From: Pseudovirgaria hyperparasitica
Taxonomy: Eukaryota
Strand: one strand, 5' to 3'
Length of the DNA stretch: 64,000 bases
NCBI GenBank assembly: GCA_010093815.1
Contig: ML996570.1
In this document: piece by piece, positions 25,317 through 64,000 of the stretch
Layout of the letters: every line of letters starts with the position of its first letter
How positions within the stretch are numbered: the first letter of the stretch is position 1
Notes under the pieces: generated by a model
What the model was told of the DNA's origin: nothing
Seen by the model: the letters and a program-made list of their open reading frames with translations, nothing else
Database searches by the model: none
Position numbers and translations under genes: made by a program

Positions 25317-25531
25317 TATTAAGGGTAGACTCTAGGTATACTTAACGCTAGCGTACTACGCCTACGCTACTACTCTCTCCTTACTTAATGGAGCTAAGTA
25401 AGCCCCTTTTTAATAGTATACTCCGTCCCTTATCTTAAGGAAGCTAAGTAGACTCTAGCTTCCTCTCTTATTAAACTTACTATATTCTATAAATACTCTT
25501 ACATCTATATATATATTATATTCCTATAATA
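25317..25531 (+). repeat. 5' LTR of element A
   Basis: Colinear with 61044-61258; TA...TA ends (RIP of TG...CA). Confidence 0.93.
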
Positions 25532-34960: not shown

Positions 34961-35890
34961 TTCTATAAACTACCGTCGTGCTATATAAAGAGGAATTAAA
35001 ATATAAGGATTATAGACGTAGAATAGTAGTCTAATAGGTTATAGGAGGATTCGGGAATATATTTAAAAGGGTAGTCTACTCTCCTAATAAGATTAATTCC
35101 TAAAGAGTAGGAATTAAGTGTATACGGCCTACTTATATAGTAGTCTCGCTTATTCTAGCTAGCTTAACCTAGGTCCACCTGTCACGGACCGTACTAGACC
35201 ATAGTAGTCTAGTTAAGTCTATCCTAGTATTAGCCCTAATAATAATAGTGCTAAAATCTCTACTACTTCGGACTTCTTTCTATATACTAGCGATATTAAA
35301 ATTCCTAGAAAAGGTTCTAGTAAAAAGGCTAAGGTTCCTTCCTTACGCGTGCTAAAGAGCTATAAATTTAGAGAAGATAGCTCTAATCTAGAAGTTTCTA
35401 TACTAAAGGTATATAGTTCTATACCGATCGTTAAATCTTTTTACTAATTTATATAATTCTTAGCGTGCCCGCGCCGGTCCGTCTCTCTCTATTCTAGGTT
35501 CTACTACTCTATAGGTTTCTATAGAGGAGTTTATAGCTATAAGGCGCGCTATATAGAATTTATAGCGTCGGAACGAAAGGCTAGAGACTTATATTATAAA
35601 GCTCTATACTATACTAAATAAGAACTAGCAAAAGGAATTAGATGTAACTATCGCGGTAATTAGTACTTCTACTCCTACTCCGACTTAATTAGTTTAGATC
35701 TATACTAATTAGTACTAATATATCTCTTTTATCTAGTATTTTTAGTTTTTTAGTTTTAATTTTAAAGTAATCTTACTTCTTCTAGATAGATTAGTACGAG
35801 TTTATAAAGATCTATATAGATCTTTATATTTTCTTTTAGCTTTCTTAATTTTATCTTTCTTTAATAATAACTTCTTTAATCTCTTTAGTA

Positions 35891-41100: not shown

Positions 41101-41704
41101 AACCTTCTCGGTTCTAGTTAGACTATCTTAACTATAGTACTATATAGGGAGTAATTCGAATATAAGAATAGGGTTATTAGATAGTAGTATAGTTAGATAG
41201 AATAATAGGGTGTATTCTATTATAGAATGAATTACTACCGAACCCTTTCGGTAGAAATCTAAGAGTATATATATAAAGGGACGCCGATCTATCTAGTACA
41301 TAACTATTTACCGCCCTTCACGTTACCTCCTAACTCTATTAGCTAAGATACGTATAGATTGGGTCCTATCTAAGGCTAAGTCCTAACAACTAGCGCGTAA
41401 GAGAAACTAAATATAATACTTCTAGAAAAGAGGAGACTCTATAAAAGGTAAGGACCCTAAAGCCTTCTTTATATAACTCGAGTATATATTTATAGATAGT
41501 AATAAGAAGGCTAAGGCCTTAGAAAAGCTTTCGTTACTTAAATATATAAATAGCTAACCTTAGTATAAATACTAACTTAAATTTAATAGGCTTCTACTAA
41601 GTACCGGTAGAGATAACTAGAAAGATAGCGTAAAAATTAGCTATCTCTAAAATACCTTCTTAAACCCCGCTTATATATATATAGCCTCTATACTAAGGAT
41701 TATA

Positions 41705-44700: not shown

Positions 44701-46990
44701 AATACTAAATATCTAGATATAATTAATATCCTCTAAGAGGTTACTACGGAGGATATACTTAACGCCGTTAAAGTACTCCCGAATGATAAGGTACCCGGAC
44801 TAGATAGAATACTAAATAGGTACCTTAAACGCACTATACTAGCTACCCTACCGCTTATTAGTTATATATTTTAAGCATGTATTAAGAACGGATACCACCC
44901 CTAAAGCTTTCGGGCCGTCTATACTATTATACTCCCGAAACTAGGGAAGAACCCTAGCTCCCTAAAAGGATAGAGGCTAATTGCCCTCCTCTTCTATCTT
45001 GGGAAGATACTAGAGGCTACGATCGCAAAGAAGATAAGCGCCGCAGTATAGAAATATAACCTTCTTCTAGTAAACTAGAAGGCGAAGGCTAGAAGCTCCC
45101 TAATTACCGCTATCTAATATATCCTTAAAGTCGTCTAGACCGTATGGAAGTAGGGACGTGTAGTAACGCTACTCTCCCTCGATATGGCCGGCGTATTTGA
45201 TAAAGTAAACCACACGAGACTTATCTATAACTTACGGAAGAGGCGTATACCCGCGTAGATTACGCGGTTTATATAGTTCTTCCTCGCCGAAAGAGTTACC
45301 TAGATATATATCCCCGGATATCGAAGTAAGTACGAGAAGACGGCTTACGGCATCCTATAAGGAAGTACTATCTCCCCGATTCTCTTCCTCTTCTTTACTA
45401 TAGACCTTCTCTAGGGAATATAATATATAGAGGTAGTAGGATACGTAGATAATATATACCTTCTAGCTATTAATAATAATACTAGCTAAATATATAGACG
45501 ACTCGAATAAGACCACGGGAGATGCGTCTAATAGGTAAAGCGCCACGGAGTAAAGTTCGCCCCTGAAAAGTACTAACTCATATACTTTATTAACTGCCGT
45601 GGGAAATAGGCTACTAGGGAAGGCGAGTGACGCCCTAGAATAGACGCCTTCGACGAACCGCCGATATAAAGTATACACGCACTTAGCGTTATGATTAATA
45701 ATAAGCTTAAATAGGGACCATAGGTAGCATACGCCGTTTCTAGGGCCCTCTAGGTAGAAGCCGCTATACGACGGATTATAGCCTCCATATAGAGAACCGC
45801 CCGGGATAAGGCACGCTAGCTATATATATCTATAGTACGACCCGCCTTTACGTATAGACACGAGTACTAGTATACGGCCCTTATATAGACTAGGCGAACG
45901 AAGCTTAAATCCATATAGAACCGTATACTCCGTCTTATATTAGGCGTATATAAAGCTACTAACACGGTGCTACTACGACGCGAGATAGACGTTATAAGTA
46001 TATATAACTTCTACTAGATATAGAGGGTGGTATACTTTACTAGATAATAAGCATAGGAACGTGTAGAAAATATAGAATATACCTTCGCCGCGCTACGCGC
46101 GCGGGTTAGCGTATACTACTAAGTACTCTTATATATAGGCCGGACTCGACTACGGTATAAGTGCCCGATAGAAATAGACTCGAACTAAGTGGTATAAGAG
46201 ATTAGGGATAACCTAGACGCCCTCCTAGACTAATAGAGCCTTCGAGAGCTTAGACGAAGTATATAGTTATAGATCTAAGATAAGTAGAAAGAGATACTCC
46301 GGGCCTAGTGGGCCTCCTAGTAGGATAGATACCTAGAGTGGATCCGAGGACCATAGAAGGAGCTGAGTAAATAGATATATAAAGGGCTTATAAAGGCCTA
46401 GGTATCTATACTCCTCTAAGCCTAAACGGGCGCTATAGAACTTCTATACTACCTCTATAAGAGAGGCGTCCCTAACGTGTCTCTATAGTATAAGGCGTGC
46501 GGCCGGAGAGGTATAATACGCCACTATCTTATAATATACCCTAATCTTTACACGTAAAGGTAGAAGCTTATCCACACGATAAGAACCTCCGATATCGTAT
46601 AATAGCTTAATAAGTACCCTAAGGAAGTCGCCCGGTGGATGATTATATACCTACTACTCCTCTAATTCTAGTAGACCCGGAAATATATATCGGAAGGAAC
46701 CCGGTATACATTAGAGGAAACCCGGCATATGCCGGAAGAACCCCTTAACTAATAACCTCCGCACCTATACGTGCTGCCTAAGGGTAAAATAACGGTAATA
46801 TAGGCTATAGGCTAATAGGTGTACCCTATGGCTATATACTTAAGAAGAAATAAAGGTTTAACGAGATGTAATTATTAATATAAGGAAGTTTTCCCCTCTT
46901 AGGTTTCTTCTTATATAGTAGCTTAGACTAGAGGAGGCATAGGCCTATAGAGTACTACTCTACCTAGTTATACAATATTATTATTATTAT
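41705..46990 (+). mobile_element. Full-length non-LTR retrotransposon (Tad1-like LINE), RIP-inactivated, inserted in gag of A
   Basis: ORF1 zinc knuckles (QCFNY*GYGY...C; CGWY...). ORF2 APE motifs IAI*EL, ILLGDFNL, STLDLTLAT, DSDH. RT motifs KVPGLD, *RLIALL..LGKILE, LSLDMAGVFDKVNH, GIL*GSTISPILF, GYVDN. (ATT)n tail. 16-bp TSD TATACTAAGGATTATA (41689-41704 / 46991-47006). Confidence 0.93.
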
Positions 46991-48172
46991 TATACTAAGG
47001 ATTATAGACTACTATAGCTTCGCGGAAGAGGTCGAGAGAATTATAATAAACTTAGAAGATACTAAGTAGTTTAAGGTAGCTAATAAGAAGTAGAAAAAGA
47101 ATATAGTTACTATAATAAAAAGCACGGTAGCTATAAGGTTATATAAGTATTATACTATAGCTAAAAAGAATAAGAATAGAGATACTATTATAGGCCCCGT
47201 ATATATAAGCGGAGACTAGAAGAAAGGATTTAGATTCCGCCGTAAGACGGAGGAGATACTAAAGGTAAAGTAGATTAACTAAGTAGAAAGGAATAGACGC
47301 TAGAAAGAAGGACTCTACTTCCGTTATAGGGTATCGGGATACTAGATTAAAGGCTACCCGTATACTAATCCCTCCTTAACCTCTAAAAGAATTATAAAGA
47401 TTAATTAAGTTAAAATTATATCTCTATTAGAGATTAAAGATAATCTTATAGATTCTAGTAATAAGTACTTAGGAAATATATAACTTTCTCTTAAAGTTAA
47501 GAGTAGAGAGTAGAGAACGTACTAGTAGATAGATAGGCCGAGTTCTAAAGTATAATAGATAGAAACCTTATATATACGGATATAGTTCTCTAAAAAGCTA
47601 TTAGGACTTTTACGCTTATTAACGAAGGCTACTAGTACTACGCTATAATTTAAGAAGACCTAATAGAAGGTCTAGAACTCCCCTATATAAATTATAGAAA
47701 ATATATAATTAAGGGAGTAACGGACACTATAAACGACTCCGAAATTCGTAGAGTCGTCGCGTTTCGTATAGAGATAGATAATTATAGATAAGATATCTAC
47801 GCTTATATAGTACCTAACTTAGCCTTCCCGCTTATTCTTAGAAATCCTTAGAAAGTATATAATAAGGTATAGACCGCGCCTAATAAGCGATAGTGTTAGG
47901 ACGGGAACTATAATAGACCTATATAGACCATTCTAATCCATGCAGCCACGTAGTGGCTAGAGCTAGGTTAAGTCAGCTAAGTTAAGCGAGGTTACTATAT
48001 AAGTAGACCGCATAAACCGATTTCTACTCGTTAGGAGTTAACCTCGTATAAGAGTAAGATTACTCTATAAATACATTTCTATATCTCTCTATAAACTATT
48101 AGACTACTATCCTACGTCTTCACTCTTTATATTTTAACTCCTCTCTATATAGCACGACGGTAGCTTATAGAG

Positions 48173-51100
48173 ATAGCTCCTACTACGCGCTATAATACCC
48201 GTGGTACTACCTTACACGAGAGACTCTCTCTAAATCTAAACGAAGAGAATAGTCTCCCTACGACCACCTCCACCGATAAGTATACTCTATAGACTATTAT
48301 ACTAATAACTAGTATAGTATTCTATATAACCGTGGAAGATTACCTAGATAATAAGGAAGGAGTCTATTATACTCCATCGCGGTCTAGTTTATACTATACT
48401 AGACCCATTCTTACTATAAGACCAGACCCTATTAACGTTAATAAATTAATTCGTTAGAACCGACTAATATTAACCACGCCTTACGACGACGTATATACCA
48501 AGCTATACATAGAGAGGTAGCGTTAGACTTAGCTTAAGTAGTAACTTTGCGAACTCGACGAAGCGTAAGAACGAACCGCTAGACTCGAAGCCGTACTACG
48601 CGCTTTAGTACTAGTAGTAACTAACCTATACTAATATAGACTAACTTAAGCCGAAATAGTCTAACTAAGTCTATTACTATCCCAGTTGCCTCGGCCTAAG
48701 AAACCACCTTACTTTAATAGTAAAACCAGGAGGAGCTTTTATAAATAGGCTTACTAGTATAGCCGATTCTTCCATCTATTCACGAACGATAGTAATAAGA
48801 TTAGATTCGTATAGAACTACCTAGACCTAACGCCATCTAAACGTTAGATAGTATATCGAATTAAATACCCTAAGGATGTGTATAACTAGGACACGTTTAC
48901 TAAATTCCTTCTTTAATACTTCGGCAATAGAGCTAAGTAACGCGAATAGGCTTAGAGCCATATCTTTAAGACTTAATAGTAAGAGAGATAATCCCCGTTA
49001 TAACTTCTCGAATACCTCTAACCTCTTTAGAGAGAAGCTAAGGAAGATCGTATAGTTTAATAATGTGACGACTTTAAAAGGTCTCTTAACCCGAGCGTAA
49101 AGGAACGCATTAACCTTATAACGTCTATCCCTACCGACCTTTAGGTACTCGCGAATCTTATAGAACGACATTAGCGTATAATAAATAACTAATATCGTAT
49201 AGGCGTATAACTATCCCTATTAATCTAATCTAATACGAAATCGTCTAAAGAGGACCGGTTTAGTAATAGATCGCGCGGAACACCTCGTAGACGCTACTAC
49301 TCTACGAACTCGAGAAGACGAGGCCCGTACCACGGATCTTTCTACTAGTCGATATATTAAGACGTGAGAAACGACTCGTATAAACGACCTAAAGTTACCT
49401 ACTATACCTATGGTAGAATAGGCTATATAGTACCCGAGTGCCGCTTAGGGAAACCACCGAATACTAATATAGATACTAAGTTAGTTATATACTATAAGTG
49501 CTAGTAGCTAGAATATATCGCGCCTAACTACCCGGTATATAATATAAAAAACTAACTATCTATAAGGAACCCTCGTAACTCGTAGATATAACTAAAATAG
49601 AGGGATAACTAGCCAACTAGTATATCGAACTATAGGCTAGGCCTATCGAGATCCCTCGTAGATAATATTAGACTATAATACTCGATAGCGGTTTAGCTAC
49701 TAACGTTATATCGACTTAACGAGTACGAGAACTTAACGTCGATATTTAAGTACTAATAGGTACTATCTTCTATAGTATCGATGGTCCTATTAAATCGTAG
49801 AGTATCTATACTATTAAATACGGTATCTAGGACAGCGGGGGGAAGTGGAAACCCTACTACTTAACCTTTATCGTGGTAGATAGTCCCTTTAATATGATCC
49901 TCGGTATACTATAGCTTAAAAAATATAACCCGAAACTAGACTTTATCTAGAAAACAGCTGGCTGGCGTATATACCTACTATAATGGAATCTAGTATAGCT
50001 AGTTAACGACGAATAATTCTAGAAGGACTACGAAAAGGTAATCTCCGCTATCTACGTCCTCTTACTTACTTAAAATAGAGAGCTTAGTATTAAAGTGGAC
50101 GAAAACCTACTATATTAGTATAAAATATACTAATATATCGCGTTAGTAATCGACTCGTCCGAATTACCTTAATACCAATCTACTAACCTTACTATTAACC
50201 TCGAAGACGGTTAATAACCCCTACACGGACCTATCTACCCTCTATTAGAACCCGAGCTATAGGTCCTCCGAGAATATATCGAAAAGAACCTTATATAAGG
50301 ATAGATTAGGCCTAGTATATCCCTAGCCGGAGCTCTAATCCTCTTTATAAAGAAGAAGGATAGGAGTCTCTATCTATGTATCGACTACCGTAGCCTAAAT
50401 AATATTACGCGAAAGAATCGTTATCTACTACCTCTTATCTCCGAGTCTATTAATAGACTAGAGCGCGTAAAGATCTTTACTAAGCTCGATCTATACGACG
50501 TCTACTACCGCCTATATATTAAGAAGGGCGATAAGTAGAAAACGGCGTTTAGAACCCGTTATAGATACTTCGAGTATATAGTAGTCCCTTTTAGACTAAC
50601 TAACGCGCTAGGAACCTTCTAAGCGTATATTAATAACGCGCTAGTAGGCCTACTCGACATAACGTGCATTATATACCTCGATAACATCCTTATCTTCTCT
50701 AATAATAAAGAAGAATACATCTAGTACGTACACGTAGTTCTAGATAGGCTAGAAAAACATAAGCTATATATTAAGCTATCTAAATGCGAGTTCCACTAGG
50801 ACCACGTTAACTTCCTTAGCTTCGTTATTACTAATTAAGGTATAACCATAGAAAGGGATAGAGTTACTACTATCGTGGACTAGCCTAAACTAAAATCGGT
50901 TTAAGATATACGTGTCTTTATTAGATTCGCTAATTACTACCGAAAATTTATTAAGTATTTCTCCTAGCTAGTAGCACCGCTTAACGCGCGTACTACTACT
51001 ATAGATTCGTCTATTACGGTCCGCGGTGGATAGAAATAGTATAATATTAAATCGTAGTCTATAGAATTATTAGAAGGCGAAAGGGCCTCCTTTAAGAAAA

Positions 51101-53320
51101 TCAAAGAGGCATTTATAACTACCCTATTACTAGTGCACTTTAACCTAACTAAACCTATCCGCGTTAAAACTAACGCGTTAGGATTTATAATCTTAGGTAT
51201 TCTCTTCTAGCCTAGACCAACTAAGTCTAAAAAGGTCTAATAGTATCTAGTTGCGTTCTTCTTACGTAAAATGGTCGATGTTAAGACTAGATATACTATC
51301 TATAACTAAGAGCTACTAGTAATAGTAGAGTCATTTAAATAGTAGCGATATTATCTTAAAGGTGCCATGTATAACATCGAGTTACTAACTAATTACTATA
51401 ACTTAAAGGGGTTTATAAGTACGACGGTTTTAAACCGTTAATAGATCTAATAGGCTAAGTAGCTTACGAACTTTCACTTTATAATCTACTATCGACCTAG
51501 AAGTATAAACCTAGCTAATAGAATATTAAGAAGACCTAACTATAAAGAAGGCGCCTAGGATTATAGTAGCCATAGGGTTCTAGAGTAGCTATAGGCCTAA
51601 CTCTTAAGGACGAGGTTAGATTTTAAGTTATTAGGTAATTAGCGAGATACTAACGTTAATACTAGTAATCGAATCTCTAAGACCGAAGCCGGTAACTAAA
51701 GACGCGGTACTAAAGTCCCTAGTAGGCCGTTTATTAGCGCTGTCGGGAAGGGCGATAATACCCGGTATAAATATCTAATTAACCTCGCCTAGTTAATCGT
51801 GGATCTATAGAAGATAGACCTAATAGTTTTAAAGTTACATAAAATATAGTAAGATAGGTTATTACGGACTAAAGTAGACTATAAGTAGACCTTCGTGGAC
51901 GGCTTACTTTACTATAATAGAAAGTACTATATACCGACGGGTAACGCGCGATTTAATATAGTTAGCCGATACTATAACGCTAACCTAGTAGGACACTTTA
52001 GGTATGTACGTACCCTAAGCTTAATTCGTTAGTACTATTTTTAGAAAGATATACCTAAGTACATCAAAGAATAGATAGCTACTTATCCGATTTATTAAAG
52101 AACGAAGGCCCCTAGGCATAAGCCATATAGGAATTTATAGCCTCTTTTAGCCCCCCTCTTTATATAGGAAGATGTTACTATAGACTTTATAGTTAACTTA
52201 CCTCTAAGCGAGATACTTAGAATAAGTTATAATTCTATTCTTATTATCGTGGATAGACTTATAAAGATATCTAGGTATATCCTAGTATAGAAGATGATTA
52301 TATCTAAAGAACTAGCGTAGGTGTTCTAGAACGAGATTATTAAGGTCTATAGTATACTAAAAAGGATCGTTATAGACCGAGGAAGTACCTTCACGTCTAA
52401 ATTCTAGACGTTATTCTATGAAATAGTAAGTATAAATAGAAATATATCTATAGCATTTTATCCTTAGACGGATAGCTAGACAGAGCGATAGAACTAGACG
52501 CTTAAGGCCTACCTACGCGTATTCTATAATTTCGAGTAGAATAACTAGGCCTCCCTACTAAGTATAGTAGAGTTCATATATAATAATAGTCGTTATAGTA
52601 TAATAGGTATTATACCTTTCTAGACGAACCTCGGACGTAGTCTAAGGATAGGTTTTAAGTCTTAGACGGTCTAATTTAATCGAATAATAGACGTGAACGT
52701 CCACGGTTAGGAATTAGCGATTAAAATCTTCGAAACCGTACGTAACTATCGCGCTATAATCTAATAAGTAAACGACTTGTATACGAAGTACTATAATAGG
52801 TTAGCTAAGGATTAGACGTATAAGGAGGGCGATAAGGTCCTTCTTAATATCCGTAATATATGAATATCGCGAGTAAATAAGAAGCTTAATTATAAAATGG
52901 CTAGTTCCTTCTAAATCAAACGTTATATCGGTATAAGAGTCTACGAGCTCGACTTAGGAAGCGATATAAGAATCTATAATATATTCTACGTCTTACTACT
53001 CGAAAGATTTCGACCTAACGTATATGGCCGCATGAACGTATAGTTATACTCTATTATACCCTAAGATAGACTAGACGTATTCGAAGTAGACTATATTATC
53101 GAATATAGAATTAATAAAGATAGTATTTAGAAATATAGAATCTATTAGAAGGACTATACTAAGGACGAGGACACCTAGGAACTAGTAGTATATATCTTAA
53201 GTTCTATAATAGCTGCGTATAAGCAAAAGATATAGAATAGCGTATTATTAATATAAGTATAGCGACGTCGCGGTCGTCGTAAAAAGAAGAAGGATACCGT
53301 AGAGAACGAAGTGCTAAACT
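48173..53320 (+). pseudogene. gag-pol of element D, RIP-disrupted
   Basis: Gag knuckle ~49490-49530; protease ILDSG (49680); [15 protein letters not shown] and IYLDNILIFS (~50670); RNase H TNALGF and *ELLVIV; integrase FYP*TDS*TER; chromodomain FEVDYIIEYR...*KDYTKDEDT*EL (~53080-53190). Ends approximate. Confidence 0.92.
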
Positions 53321-53704
53321 AGGAAATCTAGACGCGCACTAGGAAAACTCTATATAGTAGCCCTATAATTTAAGCGTTGCACGGTTACCAGACGCGAAGA
53401 AAGCGTAAATAACCATTTTAGAAACGCGACGCGACACACTATAATAGAATAACATAGAAGAGTCTAGAATAGACTAACATGGACCATTACACACGAGAAA
53501 AACATAGGACCAAGAACCTAAAAAAAGGAAAATTAGAATGTAGAAACCGATAGTTATAAGCTAAGCGAGCGCATATATAATATCGTTAAGTTAAGAATTA
53601 AATTACTAGAAACTAGCCGACGGGTATCTAAACGGTCTAAAAAGGACTAAAATGGATAAAAGCTAGGTAAATAGAGCCGGCGCGTACCACCTATAGTAGA
53701 TCTA

Positions 53705-53822
53705 GAATATATAGAGCCAGGCATAGAGCTAATATATAGAGCTAGGCACAGAGCCAACACATAGAGCTAGACCATAGAGCCAATATATAGAGCTAAACCT
53801 ATAGAGCTAGAACTATAGAGCT
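53705..53822 (+). repeat. ~13-bp degenerate tandem repeat (TAGAGCYAxxxxA) x ~9 in the 3' region of D
   Basis: Directly visible; the equivalent position in C (~29263-29320) has only ~3 degenerate units. Confidence 0.8.
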
Positions 53823-55132
53823 ACTCCTCCATCTTATTATCCGTTCTAACCTCTAGTATAGTTCTCTCTAACCGTACGACATAGCGGCGGAGGACGACGA
53901 CCTTAGCCTCTAGAGTAATAACCCGATCCGTTAGAGCCTAGAGGGAAGAGTCTTAAGCGCTAGAGCGTAGCGACTAGGTCTAAAGTTAGCTAATATAATC
54001 TAGAATAATCTAGAAGGGAATATATACCCTCTTACGAGGCGACTTAGAGGGAGAAATAATAGATCTCTTATAAGATCCGTTAGTAGCGTAAGACGGATAG
54101 GGGGGGATAGAGCGAATCCTCTCTACGGCCTCTATAGCTAGAATAGACTCCCTAGAATAGGTAGCCTAGGCGCTAGAGATCTTGCGGCGGCTAGAAAAAT
54201 TAATAGGTATTAAAAATAATTAACGTGCTTATAACTTATACTTTAATAACCTCTAGGAAGAGCTTATAGCGCTCCCTAAACTCCCTCTATATAGTAGATA
54301 GGCGGCTATAAGGACCCCCGAGGGTCTCATAGACGCGAAGGTTATTATATATATCTTATATACGCATAGGAATCTAAGAATATATTAGCGTGGACTACTT
54401 TAGATTATACTAGATTAAGATAGCCCATTAGACTTACCTATAGATAAGTCTTACTAGTCATGGTATAGCGGCGGTAGCGGGTAGATAGAGTAAAGATAGG
54501 GCGTATAGGCCCGTCGTGGTTAGTAGAGTAGTAGCTAATACTAGAGTTAGAGTGAAAGAGATATTTAGAGCCGGCCGCATGGCCCTTAATATACTCATAG
54601 TATATTAAACCGTAGTTCGCCGTTTTCCTATGGCGTAAACCGTAACTACGTTTAGTATCCTTAGTGACCTAGGCCTTATTATTAGTAGGCTAGGGTTTAG
54701 AGTAAATATTAAGGTCCTAAAAGAACCTAGAGTAACTAAATCGGTCTATATTAGACCGGAAGAAAGAGCGGCAAGGCGGCGGCGTGGGTAAGCGCGAGGG
54801 CTTGCGATTATTATCTATAACGAGATCTTCTTTATCCTCTAGAGAAGGTAGAGTAGACGGCGTACGCTTTAGAGCGAGAGGAGAACCTATAACTACTTTA
54901 TCTATAAGTTTAGTACTAGGATTACCTAGATTAGAGCGACTAGTAGCTACATTAGTAGTAGAGGCAGTGTAGTAGTAGCCCTAGCTACTCTCTTCTCCGA
55001 CTTAGAGCGCGCCTTCGTACTACTATAATAGGTAGACTTCTTAGCCGGCGTAGCCGGGGAGGAGGCGATACCTTTAGAGCGAGTCTTATGAGAGGAGGAG
55101 GTAGACTTAGAGATAGGACTAGTATTAGATAT
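53821..55132 (-). pseudogene. Antisense spliced accessory gene of D (orthologue of the C gene)
   Basis: Colinear with 27958-29262. Intron-1 donor GTAAGT intact at 54437. Last exon has the same length and frame (...ALTDRVITLEAKVVVLRRYVVRLERT...KMEE*). Confidence 0.75.
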
Positions 55133-55854
55133 CTATATATATACGTTAGCTAGAGATCTAAGAAAGGAATATTTATCTACCCTTAACGGCGATTAACGAA
55201 GCTAAATTAGTAACCGTAATAACGCGAATGGGTTATATAGGACCGGTTCTAACAAGAATGGACCACTATAGACCCTTCTAAACCTAAACTAGGGAAGATA
55301 GTATATGAATTAACGACTTACCTTAAGAGCGAGGTGGATATACTAGAGAATAAAATTAAAGGCAAGCGAAGCTAAATATATACTCGACTAAAGTAGTAAT
55401 TACGTATCCTAGGTAGTAGCCATAAAGTAAGGGATAAGCGCGTACATGAACTAGTAAAAGTAAACTAGAATCTCGAGTTCACCTATATTAAGGATAGTTA
55501 TAACGTTATAGGAACTTAGTTATAGATATATAGGTACACGATAGATTATAGAGACTTAGGATTATATATACTTAAGTACTTTAGGGCGAAGCATAAAAAG
55601 AAGAAGGATATTATTAGGACGGGAACTATAATAGATCTATATGGACTATTCTAATCCATGTAGCCACGTAGTGGCCAGAGCTGGGTTAAGTTAGCTAAGT
55701 TAAGCGAGGTTACTATATAAGTAGACCGCATAAACCGATTCCTACTCGTTAGGAGTCAACCTCGTATGAGAGTAAGATTACTCTATAAATACATTCCTAT
55801 GTCTCTCTATAAACTGTTAGACTACTATCCCACGTCTTTACTCTTTATAGATAG

Positions 55855-58800
55855 TACTACTATAGCTAAGTAAAGCGATAGATAAACGAAGGTCTTAACT
55901 ACTATAAGCTAGGGACCGCTAAAGAATAGGCGGACCCTATAAAAGAATATAAGAACTCTAAAGGGGCCCTTATAGTAAACACGGTATCCGCGGAGAATAT
56001 CTATAAGACGCTAGAGAAGAAGAAAGAGCTTTTACTAGAATAGATACGGAAGATACTACCCCTATAACTCTAGAATATAGCTCTACTATTTTCTAAAAGG
56101 GAAGCGGATAAACTCGCGCCGTACTAGCTAGGTATTAATTATAAAATTAAGATATATAAGAAAGCGGACGGGATACTAATAGACTTACTATAGAGGCGGC
56201 TATTTAGTATAGTAAAGGACGAGCTCCTTATACTAGTAAAACTTCTAAGAGACCTTCTAGTAAAAGGGCTAATTTAGTATACTATATTAGAAGCTATAGT
56301 CTCTATATTATTTATAAGAAAGCCTAGTAGAGAACTCCGGTTCTATTATAACTACTATACCTTAAATACTATTACTAAGCCCGACTAGTACCCCTTACTA
56401 CTAATACTAGAGACCCTCCGAAATCTAACGGATACTAAATAGTTAACTAAGGTAGACGTTATCGCCGCCTTCTACTAGATCTATATAGCCTCTAGTTATA
56501 AATATAAAATAGTATTTAGAACTTAGCTAGGGTTATTCGAATAGATAGTATACCTATTTAGGTTATTAGAGGCTCTAGTAACCTTCTAACGGTATATTAA
56601 CTTCTTACTATAAGAATAGCTAGATAACTTTACTTTAGTCTATATAGATAATATAATTATCTACTTAAATAGGTTAAAGGAAGACTATTTTAGTAAAGTA
56701 TATATTATTCTTTAGAAGCTCTAGGACGGAGGCCTCTACCTAGACCCTAGGAAAAGTAAGTTTACTTATAAAAAGATTAAGTACCTTAGGTTTATTATAT
56801 ATACTAATAGAAAAGGCGTAGGCCCTAATCTAGAGAAGCTAGAAGTAGTAAAGAACTAGTAGAAGCTAAATACCTAGAAGGAAGTACGACGGTTCCTTAG
56901 GTTCTATAACTACTACTAGATATTTATTATAAACTATTCTAAGCTAGCCGGGCCTCTTACGGTACTTACTAGTAAGAATACTCTATTCTCCTAGAGAAAG
57001 AATAAAGAAGAGTTATTCTAGGCCCTAAAGGAGAAGTTCTTAGAGGCCCTAGTTATAGTATACTAGGACCCTTATTAGAAGATATTCCTTAAGACGGACT
57101 ATAGCGGGCTCACGCTTAGAGAAGTACTACTTTAGGAAAATAAAAGAACTCTTAGACCCGTTAGATTTTTCTTACGGAAGCTAAATAAAGTAGAGATTAA
57201 CTATAATATCTATAATAAGGAGATACTCGCTATAATCTTCTACTTAAAGTTCTAGAACCCCAAGTTAAAAGTATATAGTCCCTTTACTATATAGATAGAT
57301 TATAAGAATCTTAAATACTTTATAACGAAGTATTATCTATTAGAATACTAAATATAGTAGTATAAAACCTTATCTAGGTACTAGTTCTTCTTAGTTTACT
57401 AACTAGAATCTAAAATAGTTATCTCTAACGCTCTATTAAGACGGGAATAAGATATACTTAGAGTAGACGATAAAGAGTCTAGGTTCCGTAGATTTCTAGA
57501 CCCTAAGAATATAAAAGATTAGCCGGTCCCTAAGGTAAGACTATCGGCGGCCTATACTACTAACTTACTATTTAAGAATATATTACTAGGGACTAAGCCT
57601 ACCTACGAAGAGCCGGCTTCCCCGGGACCTTTCTAGAACTACTCTCTAAATAATCTATAGACTATAATAGTAGAAAAGGACTTAATATACTAAACTATAC
57701 TCCGTATAGTAATAGAAGGAGTATAGTTATTTCTAAGCGAGGTAAAGCTAAAAGTCTAAGTAGTAGATTATAGTATTAGCTTAGAGGGCTACCTTAACTA
57801 CTATAGAAAATTATAGATACTAGGCGTAAAGGTAACTATAGAAGCCAAGTATAAAGTACTAGAGCCTAGCGATTTAGAAGGGGACGTCCTTTGGACTAAG
57901 CTTATCTAGTCTATATATAACTCGCCGCTCTACGGCTACCTAGACTAAGATTCTACTACTTCTATACTAGCACGAAGCTTCTACTAGCTACTATAGGTAA
58001 GATATATAAGATAGTTTCTATGAAATTATAACTACTATAGGCGGAATAAGGTATAGCGGGAATAAAAACACGGACTTCTAAAGTCTCTCCTAGTCTCTAA
58101 TCATTTCTTCTAGAAGATCTTAATAGACTTTCTTACTAATCTACCCGGCTTAGAAGGGAACTACTATTTATAGATTATTAAAGACCGCCTAAGTAAGACT
58201 ATAGTATTATAAGCGATATCTACTATAAAGGTAGAGAAATACGCTAAGGCGTTTATAGATTACTAGGTAAGGTACTACGGCATGCCCTTAGCAATAATAA
58301 GCGATTAAGGAATAAACTAGACTAGCTATTTCTAGAAGACCTTTTATAGTCTTACTAGAGTAACCTAAAGACTAAGCTCTATATACTATCCTTAAATAGA
58401 TAGAGGCCTAGAGAGAATAAACTAGAAGGTATAGAGCTATCTATAAAACTTTATTAATTAGGAATAGTCTAATTAGAAAACCTAGCTTCTAACTATATAA
58501 CTAGTACTAAACGCGCGCTACTAAGTAGAGCTAGAAATAAGCCTATTCTTCGCTATCTATAGATATAATCTATTATCCCCCGTGCCTCTACGGATAGAAG
58601 CTAACTCTAGTTTCTCGCTCTCTACTAAATAAAGAGTAGAAACCTTTATAAAAAAGATAAAGAATATTACTAAGCTATATTAAGTAAATATAGTAGAGGC
58701 CGCCTAAAAGTAAGAGAAGTCCACGAATAGAAAGTAAACTCTAGTACTAGTATACTATATAGAAGATAAAGTATAGCTCGATTTAAGAAACTATATAATA

Positions 58801-59237
58801 AGTTAACTAAAGAAGAACCTAGACTTAAAGCACGCGAAATATACTATAGATAAAGTTCTATTACTAGTATCCGTTAGACTAAGGGGGCTTCCTAGTAATA
58901 TCTACCCGGTATTCTATATAGATCTACTTAGACTAGCTAGCAAAGACCCTCTACCTAGATAGAAGACTAATAATAAATAACCGGACCCTATACTTATTAA
59001 GATATATAAAGAGTAGTAAGTTAAAGAGATATTATATACTAGGAATAAAGGGCGAGGATAGAGAAGAGAAGTCCTAGTAAAATAGGCTAGATACCACGAC
59101 CTAATATAGAAACCCTTAGTAAATCTAATAGATACCGCCGTATTAGATAAGTTCGAATAGAAGTTCGGACCTGCTAAGATAAATAACGGCCTACTAGAGT
59201 AGTAGACTATAAAGAAAAAGAAGATATCCGCCTAGTA
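55855..59237 (+). pseudogene. pol of element A (RT, RNase H, integrase, chromodomain), RIP-disrupted
   Basis: LTKVDVIAAFY*I (~56445), VYIDNIIIY (= YxDD, ~56640), YNIYNKEILAII (RNase H), integrase YYP*IDRGLER, chromodomain E**VKEIL...VLVK*ARY...*KPL (~59010-59125). Confidence 0.9.
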
Positions 59238-59369
59238 ACCTATAGAATACACGGATAAAGAAGAGGAAGACTATATAGTCTTAAGAGAGAATAGAAAAGA
59301 AATTCATTCTATAGAAAAAAAAAAAGAAAAAAAAGAGAGAGAACTAAACGCTAAAGGAAAAGGCCTAGA

Positions 59370-60650
59370 GGCCGGCATATTCTAATAGGTCTATAGGTTA
59401 GCCTAATAGGGCCCTAATACTAATACTAGAGGAATACTACCCGTACTATAATAGGAGGTTAGTAAGAGAATTTAACTAGAGTCTAGGATTAAACTTACGT
59501 TTAACCCTACTAGGCTATTATATTAGTTATCTAAGTAGTTACCTAGAAGGCGATAGTACTAAAAGCGTGGTTAGTAATTATTCGTCTAGGGAGTCCGAAT
59601 AGTCTTATACGGGAAGTAGACTAGCTACTTATAAAGGCTATAAAGCCTTTATAGCTTTTAGGACCTAGGCGAGGTCCTTATAGGCGTCTAGTCTAAACTA
59701 ACTATTAGCCGGGCGTTAAAACACGGAACTAGAAGAGAAAAGAACTTATACCCCGGTATTAGTCGACTAAGTCTATACTATATAAGTAATATAAGTAATC
59801 TCCGGCCTAAAATACTAAGTTAGTAGTTATTATAATAAGAGTTCCTGAGTTAGCTTATAGGTTCTAGTAATTTACCCTTCTTAGGGTATAACGAGTATAG
59901 AAGCGACTTTAGTTTAACTAAGTAAATTAGTAGAGCCTAACGTGAATAACACGGAGTCTAATACTTACTACTTAGTTAGCGTAGTCTTTACTAGCTAGGG
60001 CATAGCCCTAGTAGTAGATAATATTATTTATCTATAGAACCCGAGCATTAGTAACTAGACTCTAACTAGACGAGAAGAGAGAATCTAATCTTACGATAGA
60101 GAAGGACGAGGTTATTAAGGTCTAGAAAAATAGAAGGGAAACTATACCTTTATACTTAGGACCCTTAAAATTATAAATAGACCTTCGTGAATAGAATATC
60201 GTAAATAGAATATCTATAATATATAAATATCTATTTACGTACGACTCTAAAAATATATAAATAACCCTTATTCACGTACTCTTAATGGACGAGTAAATGG
60301 TCCCGGCGTATACGATAATAGGCACCCTATTAACTAAGAAGTACCTGGTAAGGGATAGATTAATATAAAAATAGTTCTTAATCGAAGAACTAAACCCTTT
60401 CTTCTATATACTTAATAATAGGTCTAAGGCCTAAGAAGATATAGGGCTAAGGCCTAAGGAGATATAGAGCTAAATTAAAGTAGACGCACGGATGGTAAGT
60501 CTAGTAGAATTTTACTAGACTTACTACGTGAATATATATATTAAGTCTAAGTAGCCTAGCTTATAGGGAGTACTATACGCGGCGGTAATAGAGGCTACTA
60601 CCATCCTATAATAACGATTATTACTACTAGAGTAATAATAGACACTACTA
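59370..60650 (-). pseudogene. Antisense multi-intron accessory gene of element A (product unresolved)
   Basis: Up to 8 short (51-67 nt) minus-strand intron-like units: 60470-60524, 60345-60411, 60214-60279, 60032-60094, 59918-59968, 59807-59858, 59693-59749, 59446-59498. Four retain GTAAG donors; most show CTAAY branch sites and YAG acceptors. Gene ends approximate. Confidence 0.65.
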
Positions 60651-61043
60651 TATTAGGAAGCTATTCTTAGATAGACGGCTATCTACCTAGTACTAGGGGG
60701 ATATAGATATAAAAGGAGCTACTAATATAGAAATTAAACTATCTTCTATAAATAATCTATAATAGATTTAATAGATAGATTCTTTTAATAGAAGATATAT
60801 ACGCCACGATCTAATAGCGGGCGTTAAGTCTAGTCGCTAAGGCCTATATTAGGGGGCGTCGTATATAATAATAAGTATTACCACGAGCTAATAGTAATTA
60901 CTACTATAATAACTAGGTATAGAAGAGCGGCTTTATTAAGGGTTTTCTAGGAAGCCGGTAGAAATTAGCCGGATAATACTTACTTATAAGTGGTCCGTAG
61001 CTAGGGTAAGATATAGTAATAAATAAGCGGAGGGAGGGAATAA

Positions 61044-61258
61044 TATTAAGGGTAGACCCTAGGTATACTTAACGCTAGTATACTACGCCTATACTACTAC
61101 TCTCTCCTCGCCTAATAGAGCTAAGCGAGCCCCTTTTTAATAGCGTACTCCGTCCCTTATCTTAAGGAAGCTAAGTAGACTCTAGCTTCCTCCCTTATCG
61201 AACTTACTATATTCTATAAATACTCTTACGTCTATATATACATCGTATTCCCGTAATA
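61044..61258 (+). repeat. 3' LTR of element A
   Basis: Colinear with 25317-25531; preceded by PPT, followed by TSD. Confidence 0.93.
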
Positions 61259-61559
61259 CTATCTATATATAAAGACTTATTCTAAGAATCTATCTAGAGA
61301 TTAGCTATTTTAGACTATAAAGATCTTAAATCTAGAGGGCGTATAACGCCGCTATTATAATTTTTAGTACTATAGAGGCTAGTATATTATAAAAGGTTCT
61401 AATTATATCTAGAGTATAGATAGATACTATAAGCTTAGCTTATATAGTATTAAGATCTATACCTATATAGATATATATTTAAGATATATTATCTAGGCCT
61501 ATATTAGTATCTTATCTACTATAGTAGTTAGTTATCTCTTTTAGTTTCTAGAAACTTTA

Positions 61560-62106
61560 TATAAGAATAGAGTTATTAGATAGTAGTATAGTTAGATAGA
61601 ATAATAGGGTATATTCTATTCTAGAACAAATTACTACCGAACCCTTTTAGTAGAAATCCGAGAGTATATATATAAAGGGACGCCGATCTATCTAGCACGT
61701 AACTATTTACCGCCCTTTACGTTACCTCCTAACCCTATTAGCTAAGGTATATATAGATTAGGTCCTACCTAAGGCTAAGTCCTAATAATTATCCCTTCTC
61801 TCTAGGAAGCTACCCTTAGTAACCTAGATTATTATCTATCTCTATATCTCTATTCTAAGTCTCGTAAGACCTTAGTTATTCTCTACGCTTCGTCTTAGAT
61901 ATTTACTAATATTTACTAATCTAAGATTTATATAAGCGTTTTTCTAATAAACTAGATTTTATCTATTCTAACTTCTTATATAGGTAAGATTATCTAATTA
62001 GGCCTAGCGTATCACGTAATATAATTAGGTAAGCCCGGGTACTACCTATATTAAAATCTTTTCTTAGAAATATTCCTTTCTTTAAAAAACTTCTTAACTC
62101 TTTATA
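61560..62106 (-). mobile_element. Element B copy 2: 3' LTR (61560-61787) + PPT + start of 3' region, interrupted by a LINE
   Basis: Matches 25979-26525; the remainder presumably lies beyond the LINE, outside the window. Confidence 0.92.
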
Positions 62107-64000
62107 ATAATAATAATAATAATATTGTATAACTAGGTAGAGTAGTACTCTACAGGCCTATGCCTCCTCTAGTCTAAGCTACTATATAAGAAGAAACCCA
62201 AGAGGGGAAAACTTCCTTATGTCGATAATTACATCTCGTTAAACCTTTGTTTCTTCTTAAGTATACAGCTATAGGGTACACCTATTAGCCTACAGCCTAT
62301 ATTACCGTTGTTTTGCCCTTAGGCAGCACGTATAGGTACGGAGGTTATTAGTCAAGGGGTTCTTCCGGCATATATTTCCGGGTCCACTAGAATTAGAGGA
62401 GTAGTAGATATATAAGCATCTACCGGGCGACGTCCTTAGGGTACTTATTAAGCCATCGTATGATATCGGAGGTTCTTATCGTATAGATAAGCTTCTACCT
62501 TTACGTGTGAAGATCGGGGCATATTACGAGATAGTAGCGTATTATGCCTCTCCGGCCGCACGCCTTATACCATAGAGACACGTTAGGGACGCCTCTCTTA
62601 TAGAGGTAGTATAGGAGTCCTATGGCGCCCGTTCGGGCTTAGAGGAGTATAGATGCCTAGGCCTTTATAAGCCCTTTATACATCTATTTACTTAGCTCCT
62701 TCTATGGTCCTCGGATCTACTCTAGGTATCTATTCTACTAGGAGGCCCACTGGGCCCGGAGTATCTCTTTCTACTTATCTTAGATCTATAACTATATACT
62801 TCGTCTGAGCTCTCGAAGGCTCTATTAGTCTAGGAGGGCGTCTAGGTTATCCCTAATCTCTTATACCACTTAGTTCGAGTCTATTTCTATCGGGCACTTA
62901 TACCGTAGTCGAGTCCGGCCTATATATAAGAGTACTTAGTAGTGTACGCTAACCCGCGCGCGTAGCGCGGCGAAGGTATATTCTATATTTTCTACACGTT
63001 CCTATGCTTATTATTTAGTAAAGTATAATACCCTCTATGTCTAATAGAAGTTCTATATACTTATTATATTTGTCTCGCGTCGTAGTAGCGCTATATTAGT
63101 AGCTTTATATACACTAGAGATAAGACGGAGTATGCGGTTTTATACGGATTCGAGCTTCGTTCGCCTAGCCTATATAAGGGCCGTATACTAGTACTCGTGT
63201 CCGTATGTAAAGGCTAGTCGTGCTATAGAGACATATAGTTAGCGTGCCTTATCCCGGGCGGTTCCCTACGTAGAGGCCGTAATCCGGCATATAGTAGCTT
63301 CTACCTAGAGGGCCCTAGAAACGGCGTATACTACCTATGGTCCCTATTTAAGCTTATTATCGATCATGACGCCAAGTGCGTGTATGCTTTATATCGGCGG
63401 TTCGTCGAAGGCGTCTATTCTAGGGCGTCGCTTGCCTTCCCTAGTAGCCCATTTCCTACGGCGGTTAATAAAGTGCATAAGTTAGTACTTTTCGGGGGCG
63501 AACTTTACTCCGTGGCGCTTTGCCCATTGGACGCATCTCCCGTAGTCTTATTCGAGTCGTCTATATATTTAGCTAGTATTATTATCGATAGCTAGAAGGT
63601 ATATATCATCTACGTATCCTACTACCTCTATATATTATATTCCCTAGAGGAGGTCTATAGTAAAGAAGAGGAAGAGGATCGGGGAGATAGTACTTCCTTA
63701 TAGAATGCCGTAAGCCGTCTTCTCGTACTTACTTCGATATCCGGGGATATATATCTAGGTAACTCTTTCGGCGAGGAAGGACTATATAAACCGCGTAATC
63801 CACGCGGGTATACGCCTATTCCGCAGGTTATGGATAAGTCTCGTGTAGTTTACTTTATCGAATACGCCGGCCATATCGAGGGAGAGTAGTGTTACTACAC
63901 GTCCCTACTTCTATACGGTCTAGACGACTTTAAGGATGTATTAGATAGCGGTAATTAGGGAGCTTCTAGCCTTCGCCTTCTAGTTTACTAGAAGGAGGTT
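62107..64000 (-). mobile_element. Second copy of the Tad1-like LINE (3' 1.9 kb visible)
   Basis: Reverse complement of ~45060-46990; (ATT)n tail at 62107-62125 abuts the B copy 2 sequence. Confidence 0.93.

What the first reader, a model, noticed from the sequence alone, without database searches (positions are those of the whole stretch)
59370..60650. Element A carries a different, ~8-intron antisense gene in the same slot
Seen: eight intron-sized units, all on the strand opposite to pol, separated mostly by 58-120 nt exons. Examples: GTAAGT...ACTAAC...TAG at 59498-59446 and GTAAGT...ACTAAT...TAG at 59968-59918. No CxxC-x6-C pattern was found, and RIP leaves more than one plausible frame, so the product is unresolved. 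Inference: the pol-3'LTR interval is a general antisense cargo slot in these chromoviruses, filled independently with different intron-rich genes.
Basis: partly seen in the sequence, partly recalled or inferred. Interest (0 to 1): 0.75.

Follow-up and report, generated by a model that had tools for sequence, protein, structure and literature searches.

The report
Dead antisense zinc-cluster gene in retrotransposon
The stretch is a mutation-riddled copy of a small, intron-rich gene that a family of fungal retrotransposons carries backwards between its polymerase gene and its end repeat, and intact relatives show that it encodes a roughly 124-residue protein with a six-cysteine, zinc-cluster-like start.

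Summary
On the strand opposite pol, window 60094-59391 carries six intron-sized units, not eight, separated by exons of 63, 59, 57, 84 and 60 nt.

The evidence is homology. Nine metagenome loci (seven distinct elements) with at least 800 nt beyond an intact pol end all carry the same antisense gene in this interval. It has a TATA box, a 5'UTR intron and five coding introns of 45-83 nt (41 of them, 39 starting GT). The spliced frame is 124 codons, open in 3 of 7 non-mutated relatives. Variation falls on third codon positions.

A DNA profile built without the window hits 59811-59412 (E 2.8e-28). The window copy is dead from RIP, the fungal repeat-induced point mutation process. ATG reads ATA, all six Cys codons read Tyr, there are 15 stops, and three donors read AT.

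The product begins with C-x2-C-x6-C twice, which is Zn2Cys6 spacing.

Annotated hypothetical proteins of Rhynchosporium and Coleophoma match the spliced product. Pfam gives no match, and function is inferred.

The kind is known: antisense extra genes between pol and the 3'LTR, including brtn of Botrytis Boty. Homology to brtn could not be tested.

The parts
55849..59236 (+). Element A pol, from residue ~112 onward (RT, RNase H, integrase, chromodomain), heavily RIPed. Its first ~112 residues lie at 47555-47890, in front of the nested element B2.
   Evidence: Pfam RT_RNaseH and rve on the frame starting at 55852. tblastn of P0008 covers 55849-59190 and 47555-47890. The alignment with intact pol proteins places the C-terminus at about 59236.
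59237..59390 (-). Tail-to-tail gap between the pol stop and the stop of the antisense gene, with a T-rich run on the minus strand. Presumed 3'UTR and polyadenylation region of the antisense gene.
   Evidence: Position only, from the alignment with relatives. This is inferred.
59391..59445 (-). Exon 6, the last coding exon. The homologous end of the frame is near 59397, and the next in-frame TAG is at 59393-59391.
   Evidence: Alignment columns and coordinates. The RIP-collapsed nhmmer match ends at 59397.
59446..59498 (-). Intron 5 (53 nt, GTAAGT..TTACTAAC..TAG).
   Evidence: It aligns with intron 5 of all relatives.
59499..59558 (-). Exon 5 (60 nt)
59559..59608 (-). Intron 4 (50 nt). The donor now reads ATAAGA; the branch site is TTACTAAC.
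59609..59692 (-). Exon 4 (84 nt). It holds the codon that is TAG in four non-RIPed relatives (also in the RIP-like L020), TGG or CAC in others, and ATA here.
59693..59749 (-). Intron 3 (57 nt). The donor now reads ATAAGT.
59750..59806 (-). Exon 3 (57 nt)
59807..59858 (-). Intron 2 (52 nt). The donor now reads ATAAGC.
59859..59917 (-). Exon 2 (59 nt). It carries the second C-x2-C-x6-C, now Y-x2-Y-x6-Y.
59918..59968 (-). Intron 1 (51 nt, GTAAGT..CTACTAAT..TAG).
59969..60031 (-). Exon 1 (63 nt). The start codon ATG now reads ATA, and the first C-x2-C-x6-C now reads Y-x2-Y-x6-Y.
60032..60094 (-). Intron 0 (63 nt, GTAAGA..TACTAAT..TAG). It ends directly before the start codon and lies in the 5'UTR, as in the relatives.
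60095..60154 (-). Presumed 5'UTR exon, a pyrimidine-rich block and a TATAAA box (60154-60149). These align with the CCTATATAG box and CT-rich block of the relatives.
   Evidence: Sequence and alignment. The transcription start is inferred.
60155..61026 (.). Rest of the pol-LTR interval, upstream of the antisense gene. No homology with relatives and no supported exons.
   Evidence: Poor alignment. No other copy in the window.
61027..61040 (+). Polypurine tract (GCGGAGGGAGGGAA)
   Evidence: Sequence
61044..62106 (+). 3' LTR of element A. Another copy lies at 25317-26525, and a fragment at 41160-41392.

Best explanation
Window 60154-59391 (minus strand) is a RIP-destroyed copy of an accessory gene that belongs to this clade of fungal Ty3/gypsy chromoviruses. 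The gene lies between the pol stop and the polypurine tract, tail to tail with pol.

Its layout is a TATA box, a short 5'UTR exon, an intron that ends at the start codon, and six coding exons split by five short introns.

The introns lie on the strand opposite the element's genomic RNA. They are therefore not splice substrates in that RNA and are copied unchanged at each retrotransposition. This follows from orientation and is an inference.

The spliced mRNA encodes about 124 residues. The N-terminus has six cysteines in Zn2Cys6 spacing. A conserved helical, alanine- and valine-rich tail follows.

The most likely role is a small nuclear, zinc-dependent DNA-binding regulator made by the element. 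It would act on the element's own transcription or on its host silencing. Antisense transcription across the pol 3' end may have a further effect. All of this role is inferred and not shown.

In this window the gene cannot work. The start codon, all six cysteine codons and three splice donors are mutated, and 15 stops interrupt the frame.
For: Family part:
- The own-genome DNA runs hold 627 and 489 short contigs at least 80% alike across 58900-61300. All 30 bins are covered, and differences are almost all transitions. The interval is therefore a multi-copy part of family A.

Relatives:
- The pol C-terminus hits intact pol proteins (41-48% identity, E down to 3.7e-122).
- Sixty-five related loci were fetched.
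- All 9 loci of the closer group that have at least 800 nt beyond the pol C-terminus carry the gene: L001, L002, L003, L004, L005, L006, L009, L017 and L020. These are seven distinct elements. L013 and L025 also carry it next to another copy.

Gene structure:
- Exon lengths are 63/59/57-60/84/60 nt, with indels in multiples of three in the non-RIPed relatives. Intron lengths vary freely from 45 to 83 nt.
- Of 41 introns, 39 start GT, 40 have AG at the end, and 38 have a CTNAY branch site.
- The spliced frame has no stop in L009, L013 and L017, and one shared TAG in L001, L003, L004 and L006.
- Pairwise differences by codon position are 0.326, 0.287 and 0.526, with the same pattern in all six exons.
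- L004 lacks intron 1 precisely, with the frame kept.
- NCBI gene models give the same spliced protein: P0019 (124 aa, Rhynchosporium graminicola), with P0018 and P0020-P0022 as relatives.

Window copy:
- nhmmer with a profile that excludes the window hits 59811-59412 on the minus strand, E 2.8e-28.
- After collapsing C to T and G to A, the hit is 60029-59397, E 4.1e-25.
- Against the relatives' majority base, 296 of 534 columns are identical. Of 238 mismatches, 126 are C>T or G>A, against 22 in the reverse direction. After the collapse, 444 of 534 columns agree.
- RIP indices: TpA/ApT is 1.89 and (CpA+TpG)/(ApC+GpT) is 0.13.

Cysteine spacing:
- C-x2-C-x6-C, then ten residues, then C-x2-C-x6-C.
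- UniRef names P0019 'Zn(2)-C6 fungal-type dom...'. This is the source's own label.
Against: - No RNA evidence was available. No listed sequencing run is on record as RNA.
- Pfam finds no Zn_clus or any other family on the fused exon 1-2 of L004 or on P0018-P0022.
- No solved structure is similar by sequence; the best E-value is 0.37.
- The AlphaFold model is unreliable, with mean pLDDT 49.9.
- Four of the seven non-RIPed relatives carry an in-frame TAG at codon 74-75.
- Introns are as conserved as exons: 61.6% against 62.0% pairwise identity. Some constraint other than coding therefore also acts on this stretch.
- How the NCBI gene models were made is unknown, so they may be ab initio predictions.
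Confidence: 0.88

Rival explanations
1. Chance. RIP enriches TA-containing words (GTAAGT, CTAAC, TAG), so the intron-like units are by-products of mutation and no gene is there.
For: Only 2 strict units were found. A loose pattern is not enriched (2 against 2.67 in shuffles). Strict units also occur antisense inside pol, in the tile starting at 57307.
Against: With RIP-tolerant donors there are 7 matches on the minus strand against 0 on the plus strand, and none of 1000 shuffles reaches 7. Every unit coincides with an intron of unmutated relatives. The stretch matches their gene at E 2.8e-28.
Confidence: 0.02
2. The conserved stretch is a cis-acting part of the sense-strand RNA or DNA, or a non-coding antisense RNA. 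The spliced reading frame is incidental.
For: Introns are as conserved as exons. All introns share one consensus. Four relatives have an in-frame TAG. No protein family matches.
Against: Third-position bias appears in all six exons, and also after the TAG within the TAG-bearing subclade. Exon indels come only in threes while intron lengths vary freely. The frame is open in three relatives. Six cysteines are invariant across relatives. GT-AG signals are kept on the minus strand.
Confidence: 0.06
3. One reading: each chromovirus family filled the pol-LTR slot independently with an unrelated intron-rich host gene, and A's gene is different from the CxxC-x6-C gene of the other element.
For: No nucleotide-level match of the A-clade gene profile in the slots of elements B or C, even after the RIP collapse. 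None was found in the more distant chromovirus loci L026-L065. No host paralogue with other domains was found.
Against: A's gene has the CxxC-x6-C motif twice in unmutated relatives. B's slot has an antisense Y-x2-Y-x6-Y exon ending at a donor-like site, followed by a 64-nt intron-like unit, in both B copies. That is the same arrangement as exon 2 and intron 2 of the A gene.
Confidence: 0.15

Closest known systems
brtn, the additional antisense gene of Boty-like retrotransposons of Botrytis cinerea and Sclerotinia (Zhao et al. 2011, Virology 417:248). The paper itself is not held. I saw it only as cited in passages of PMC8365987, PMC7264820, PMC4227169 and PMC5987419.
   Same: It is a fungal Ty3/gypsy element with a chromodomain, carrying an extra gene between pol and the 3'LTR on the strand opposite gag-pol (passages). 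The database relatives found here come from Rhynchosporium and Coleophoma. By my own recall, not from any call, these belong to the order Helotiales together with Botrytis.
   Different: Homology could not be tested because no brtn sequence was on hand. No protein named BRTN was among the 5 hits of the P0018 search. I could not see in the passages whether brtn has introns or a cysteine motif.
Antisense additional ORFs between pol and the 3'LTR of plant LTR retrotransposons (aORF-3R: maize Grande gene23, rice RIRE2, Silene Retand, Phaseolus PvRetro13). Review PMC7264820, passages read. PMC11963269, search listing only.
   Same: Same slot and same orientation, present in most copies of a family, with its own promoter upstream of the ORF in Grande and an unknown function.
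   Different: These are plant, mostly non-chromovirus lineages. According to the review, no sequence similarity to other proteins is reported for them. Here the gene is split by six short fungal introns and starts with a Zn2Cys6-spaced cysteine motif.
Fungal Zn(II)2Cys6 binuclear-cluster DNA-binding domain (Gal4 type, Pfam PF00172). The spacing rule is recalled, not taken from a call.
   Same: Six cysteines spaced C-x2-C-x6-C-x10-C-x2-C-x6-C at the N-terminus, with basic residues in the second half. UniRef's label for P0019 names this domain.
   Different: No Pfam match at E up to 10. The first half is acidic and not basic. The protein has about 124 residues, without the usual linker, dimerisation region or fungal transcription-factor middle domain. 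It is encoded by a mobile element.

Membership tests
Antisense accessory gene of an LTR retrotransposon (aORF-3R) | Lies between the pol stop and the PPT/3'LTR | tested here: met
   pol ends at about 59236, the gene spans 60154-59391, and the PPT is at 61027-61040. The placement is the same in L001-L020.
Antisense accessory gene of an LTR retrotransposon (aORF-3R) | Encoded on the strand opposite gag-pol | tested here: met
   All nhmmer hits are on the minus strand of loci oriented with pol on plus. In the window, pol is on plus and the gene on minus.
Antisense accessory gene of an LTR retrotransposon (aORF-3R) | Present in most copies or relatives of the family, not a one-off transduction | tested here: met
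   Present in 9 of 9 closer loci with at least 800 nt beyond pol. The interval is multi-copy in the own genome.
Antisense accessory gene of an LTR retrotransposon (aORF-3R) | Transcribed from its own promoter and, here, spliced | not testable with these tools
   There is only a conserved TATA box and CT-rich block, the precise loss of intron 1 in L004, and annotated gene models. No RNA run was listed.
brtn family of Boty-like elements | Sequence homology to BRTN | not testable with these tools
   The Zhao et al. 2011 paper is not held. No BRTN-named protein was among the hits.
Zn(II)2Cys6 fungal-type DNA-binding domain | Six cysteines spaced C-x2-C-x6-C-x5-12-C-x2-C-x6-8-C | tested here: met
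   Seen in L001, L003, L004, L005/6, L009, L013, L017, L025 and in P0018-P0020. In the window all six are Tyr codons.
Zn(II)2Cys6 fungal-type DNA-binding domain | Match to the family profile (Pfam PF00172) | tested here: not met
   No Zn_clus (PF00172) match at E up to 10 for L004 exons 1-2 (no family at all) or for P0018-P0022, where only two weak, unrelated sub-threshold rows appeared. Only UniRef's own name for P0019 points to this domain.
Zn(II)2Cys6 fungal-type DNA-binding domain | Binuclear-cluster fold, zinc binding and DNA binding | tested here: inconclusive
   The AlphaFold2 model has mean pLDDT 49.9, so no fold search was made. No PDB sequence match was found.
Chromovirus (Ty3/gypsy with chromodomain) | RT, RNase H, integrase and a C-terminal chromodomain in pol | tested here: met
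   Window: RT_RNaseH at 1.5e-14 and rve at 0.0067. Of the 13 closest full-length relatives, 11 carry PF00385. The window frame aligns to their C-terminus.
RIP-mutated repeat | TpA/ApT above 0.89, (CpA+TpG)/(ApC+GpT) below 0.7 (thresholds recalled), and a C>T/G>A bias against relatives | tested here: met
   The indices are 1.89 and 0.13 in the interval. There are 126 C>T/G>A changes against 22 in the reverse direction. Copies differ almost only by transitions.

The most novel reading that the evidence does not exclude
A clade of fungal chromoviruses encodes its own zinc-cluster-type DNA-binding regulator from an antisense gene. The gene's six introns survive retrotransposition because they face the wrong way in the genomic RNA. 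The five coding introns are near-copies of one another (introner-like), and each carries CGG/CCG-type half-sites of the sort zinc-cluster proteins bind. The protein could then bind its own gene or element, forming a self-regulating circuit. In one subclade, a conserved in-frame UAG with continued downstream constraint would be read through.
Probability: 0.12. Interest if true: 0.8.

Novelty: new member of a known kind. Interest (0 to 1): 0.62.

Why it matters
Antisense extra genes in LTR retrotransposons are known from a handful of plant families and from Botrytis Boty. Their products have no recognised relatives and no known role.

This case gives a worked gene model:
- a promoter motif;
- six introns and an open 124-codon frame;
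- a coding signature in the pattern of variation;
- annotated counterparts in sequenced fungi;
- a cysteine motif that suggests a testable activity, namely zinc-dependent DNA binding.

It also shows that in RIP-saturated repeats a real gene can be hidden. Cys codons read as Tyr, GT donors read as AT, and the ATG reads as ATA. Unmutated relatives from metagenomes can recover such a gene.

For this particular locus the gene is dead, so the locus matters only as a marker of the family.

Tried and rejected
- Whole genome: none is held.
- Earlier notes of the scan: nothing by place, sequence or words.
- RNA evidence: no RNA holder was listed. The four runs laid were DNA-type contigs. Two runs from another sample under the same species label held next to none of the stretch.
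- Hard-stop test (TGA) for frames: useless, because TpG is almost gone (0-2 TGA per frame, even one in the true pol frame).
- ORF listing of the window interval: only short frames.
- Pfam on six-frame translations of 55850-61000: nothing on the minus strand.
- Pfam on L004 exons 1-2 and on P0018-P0022: nothing meaningful.
- Word-indexed protein search with the 41-residue fused exon, longer proteins: none.
- Profile of exon peptides: MAFFT stacked exon 2 on exon 1, so the alignment could not serve as a 41-column profile. The single 41-residue piece was searched instead.
- PDB by sequence: nothing below E 0.37.
- AlphaFold2 of P0019 with 6 rows: pLDDT 49.9, so no fold search was made.
- ESM Atlas: unnamed Ascomycota clusters at 0.87-0.88, leads only.
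- Host-intron comparison in the GC-normal part of the window: only 3 candidate introns, uninformative.
- True C-x2-C-x6-C in the RIPed 40 kb: none in any frame.
- Literature: searches found no report of a zinc-cluster or multi-intron antisense gene in a fungal LTR element. led to brtn. The primary brtn paper is not held.
- One literature search failed on a term's syntax and was not repeated.

Full report
**Setting**

The window has a GC-normal part (1-24000) and a 40-kb AT-rich part. The AT-rich part consists of nested repeats with extreme RIP indices. In the studied interval TpA/ApT is 1.89 and (CpA+TpG)/(ApC+GpT) is 0.13.

Element A's pol lies on the plus strand. Residues 1-112 are at 47555-47890 and the rest at 55849-59190. 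It is split by a nested copy of another element, B2 (47889-55849), whose sister copy B1 is at 27228-35244.

Aligned with intact relatives, pol ends at about 59236. A polypurine tract lies at 61027-40, and a 1.06-kb LTR follows at 61044-62106. The finding therefore sits in a 1.8-kb interval between pol and the 3'LTR.

That interval has no second copy in the window. In the genome's own DNA runs, however, hundreds of short contigs at least 80% alike cover all of it, differing almost only by transitions. It is a regular, multi-copy part of family A.

**Checking the observation**

The two quoted units exist as stated.

A strict intron pattern finds only those two on the minus strand and none on the plus strand. 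This is marginal: shuffles give a mean of 0.196, and 27 of 1000 reach 2. A loose pattern is not enriched. Frame tests are powerless here. RIP has removed nearly every TpG, so every stop is TAA or TAG and could derive from a sense codon.

Once GT>AT at donors is allowed for, the minus strand of 59370-60150 gives 7 matches. These are six distinct units. The plus strand gives 0, the 98 other tile-strands of the RIPed region give 0-3, and none of 1000 shuffles reaches 7.

**Relatives**

The RIPed pol C-terminus, read with X at stops, still finds intact pol proteins at 41-48% identity, with E down to 3.7e-122. An alignment of these proteins retrieved 65 loci from metagenome contigs.

The closer loci are not RIPed; GC is about 0.5 downstream of pol. 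They have the same long pol-LTR interval. In L002, for example, the LTRs are at 707-878 and 7410-7581, gag at 895-2160 and pol at 2157-6017.

Aligned on the minus strand, these intervals show a gene:
- a CCTATATAG box and a CT-rich block;
- a short exon of CAA/CAG repeats;
- an intron ending 0-1 nt before an ATG;
- exons of 63, 59, 57-60, 84 and 60 nt, plus a last exon;
- five coding introns of 45-58 nt (two outliers of 79 and 83 nt), each with GTAAGT, GCTAAC and YAG.

**Evidence that it is coding and spliced**

- Exon length changes in the non-RIPed relatives are multiples of three, while intron lengths vary freely.
- Of 41 introns in nine relatives, 39 start GT, 40 end in AG, and 38 have a CTNAY branch site.
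- The spliced frame is 124-126 codons. It has no stop in L009, L013 and L017. It has one shared TAG in L001, L003, L004 and L006.
- Pairwise differences among seven relatives are 0.326, 0.287 and 0.526 at codon positions 1, 2 and 3. Position 3 is the highest in each of the six exons.
- L004 lacks intron 1 exactly, with the frame kept. A spliced transcript copied back into an element would leave this pattern.
- A full scan of 1.84 billion proteins with the 41-residue fused exon 1-2 of L004 found one protein, P0018 (E 2.2e-4). Searching with P0018 found P0019 (124 aa) and three more. All are 'hypothetical' or 'uncharacterized' proteins of Rhynchosporium graminicola, R. secalis and Coleophoma crateriformis. 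P0019 and P0020 correspond to the spliced exons (P0020 stops after exon 5), and P0018 corresponds to them without exon 3; P0021 and P0022 match only the later exons. How those gene models were made is unknown to me.

**The window copy**

A DNA profile of the gene built from the seven aligned loci L001, L003, L004, L006, L009, L017 and L020, without the window, hits the window once, at 59811-59412 on the minus strand (E 2.8e-28). After collapsing C to T and G to A in both profile and target, the hit extends over the whole coding region, 60029-59397 (E 4.1e-25). Nothing else in the window matches, including the slots of elements B and C.

Mapped through the alignment, the window has intron 0 at 60094-60032. 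The exons lie at 60031-59969, 59917-59859, 59806-59750, 59692-59609, 59558-59499 and 59445 to about 59391.

Against the relatives' majority base, 296 of 534 columns are identical. Of the 238 mismatches, 126 are C>T or G>A, against 22 in the reverse direction. After the collapse, 444 of 534 columns agree.

The damage is as follows:
- ATG reads ATA;
- all six Cys codons read Tyr;
- 15 stops interrupt the frame;
- the donors of introns 2, 3 and 4 read AT.

**The product**

The product starts with C-x2-C-x6-C in exon 1. Ten residues later comes C-x2-C-x6-C in exon 2. This is the spacing of fungal Zn2Cys6 clusters; the rule is recalled, not taken from a call. UniRef's label for P0019 names that domain.

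The two exon peptides align to each other.

Pfam finds nothing. PDB sequences give nothing. The AlphaFold2 model is unreliable, with pLDDT 49.9.

I therefore say it works like a small zinc-cluster protein at moderate confidence. I do not file it as a member of PF00172.

**How it most likely works**

Shown: the gene's position, orientation, exon-intron structure, coding constraint and family-wide presence.

Inferred:
- It has its own TATA-type promoter.
- Its introns persist because they are antisense to the genomic RNA.
- The protein is a nuclear regulator of the element, or of the host's response to it.
- Antisense transcription over the pol 3' end may itself matter.

In this window nothing can be expressed as a protein.

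**Comparison with what is known**

Antisense extra ORFs between pol and the 3'LTR are described for maize Grande, rice RIRE2, Silene Retand and Phaseolus PvRetro13. Outside plants they are described for Boty of Botrytis and Sclerotinia, as the gene brtn (passages of the review PMC7264820; passages of PMC8365987, PMC4227169 and PMC5987419).

The primary brtn paper is not held, and no BRTN-named protein appeared among my hits. Whether this gene is brtn therefore stays open.

My full-text searches found no report of a zinc-cluster or multi-intron antisense gene in a fungal LTR element.

The slot idea stands for the A clade. Independence does not follow.

Element B's slot shows, on the strand opposite its pol and in both copies, a Y-x2-Y-x6-Y exon ending at a donor-like site, followed by a 64-nt intron-like unit. 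A second shared unit lies further on.

The A-clade profile does not detect B or C. It also does not detect the more distant chromovirus loci L026-L065, several of which have more than 1 kb beyond pol.

**Unexplained**

- The in-frame TAG at codon 74 in one subclade has the same third-position bias after it as before it. The values are 0.20, 0.15 and 0.35 after, and 0.25, 0.20 and 0.42 before.
- The five coding introns share one consensus. Alignment scores between different introns of one element lie 1.7 to 5 SD above shuffles (about 4-5 SD in three of the four elements tested).
- Introns are as conserved as exons.

**Verdict**

This is a real feature, correctly spotted and partly misread. It is a RIP-killed copy of a conserved antisense, six-intron accessory gene of a fungal chromovirus clade, encoding a small Zn2Cys6-like protein. 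It is a new member of a known kind, and possibly the brtn family.

Noticed in passing
window 41400-47100 (+) and 62099-64000 (-): A non-LTR (LINE-type) element with Exo_endo_phos_2 and RVT_1 domains, less RIPed (GC 0.40-0.45). A 1.9-kb inverted copy (91% identity) abuts the end of element A's 3'LTR.
   Followed up: partly
window 47889-55849 and 27228-35244: Two copies of another chromovirus, B, with 243-246-nt LTRs and 76-82% identity to each other. Copy B2 is inserted in element A's pol at about residue 112. A third, more distant element has its pol at 39231-36517 on the minus strand.
   Followed up: partly
window 28609-28711 (+) and 54476-54374 (-); also 29051-29112 and 54035-53974: In the pol-LTR slot of element B, on the strand opposite its pol, both copies share a Y-x2-Y-x6-Y exon ending at a donor-like site. 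A 64-nt intron-like unit follows, and a second shared 62-nt unit lies further on. This may be a RIPed relative of the A-clade gene. No nucleotide homology to the A gene was detected.
   Followed up: partly
L001, L003, L004, L006, L009, L013, L017: introns of the antisense gene: All five coding introns share one consensus: GTAAGT, a CGG..TCCG stretch, a T- or A-rich run, then CGTCGCTAACCG and TAG. Scores between different introns of one element lie 1.7 to 5 SD above shuffles (about 4-5 SD in three of the four elements tested). This is an introner-like pattern, and the CGG/CCG words resemble zinc-cluster half-sites.
   Followed up: partly
L001, L003, L004, L006 (and the RIP-like L020): codon 74-75 of the antisense gene; window 59609-59692: An in-frame TAG where L017 has TGG, L009 and L013 have CAC, and the window has ATA. 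Third-position bias continues after it within the TAG-bearing subclade.
   Followed up: partly
L004:6240-6362 (-): Precise loss of intron 1, with the reading frame kept. It looks like the trace of a spliced antisense transcript copied back into an element.
   Followed up: yes
L004 1-127 / 6886-7012; L017 1-71 / 6747-6817: These contigs begin and end with identical direct repeats of 127 and 71 nt. A full-length element RNA (R to R) or a collapsed LTR assembly would look like this.
   Followed up: no
window 59187-8, 59252-3, 59596-7, 59904-5, 60094-5, 60200-1, 60615-6: At seven CpG dinucleotides of this copy, most other copies in the genome read TpA, a change on both bases. This suggests stepwise RIP through TpG or CpA.
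   Followed up: no
L020 5466-7110: This relative's antisense gene carries 9 stops, a Cys>Tyr change and a GC donor, with lower GC (0.46). It appears to be a partly RIP-like mutated copy among otherwise unmutated metagenome relatives.
   Followed up: no
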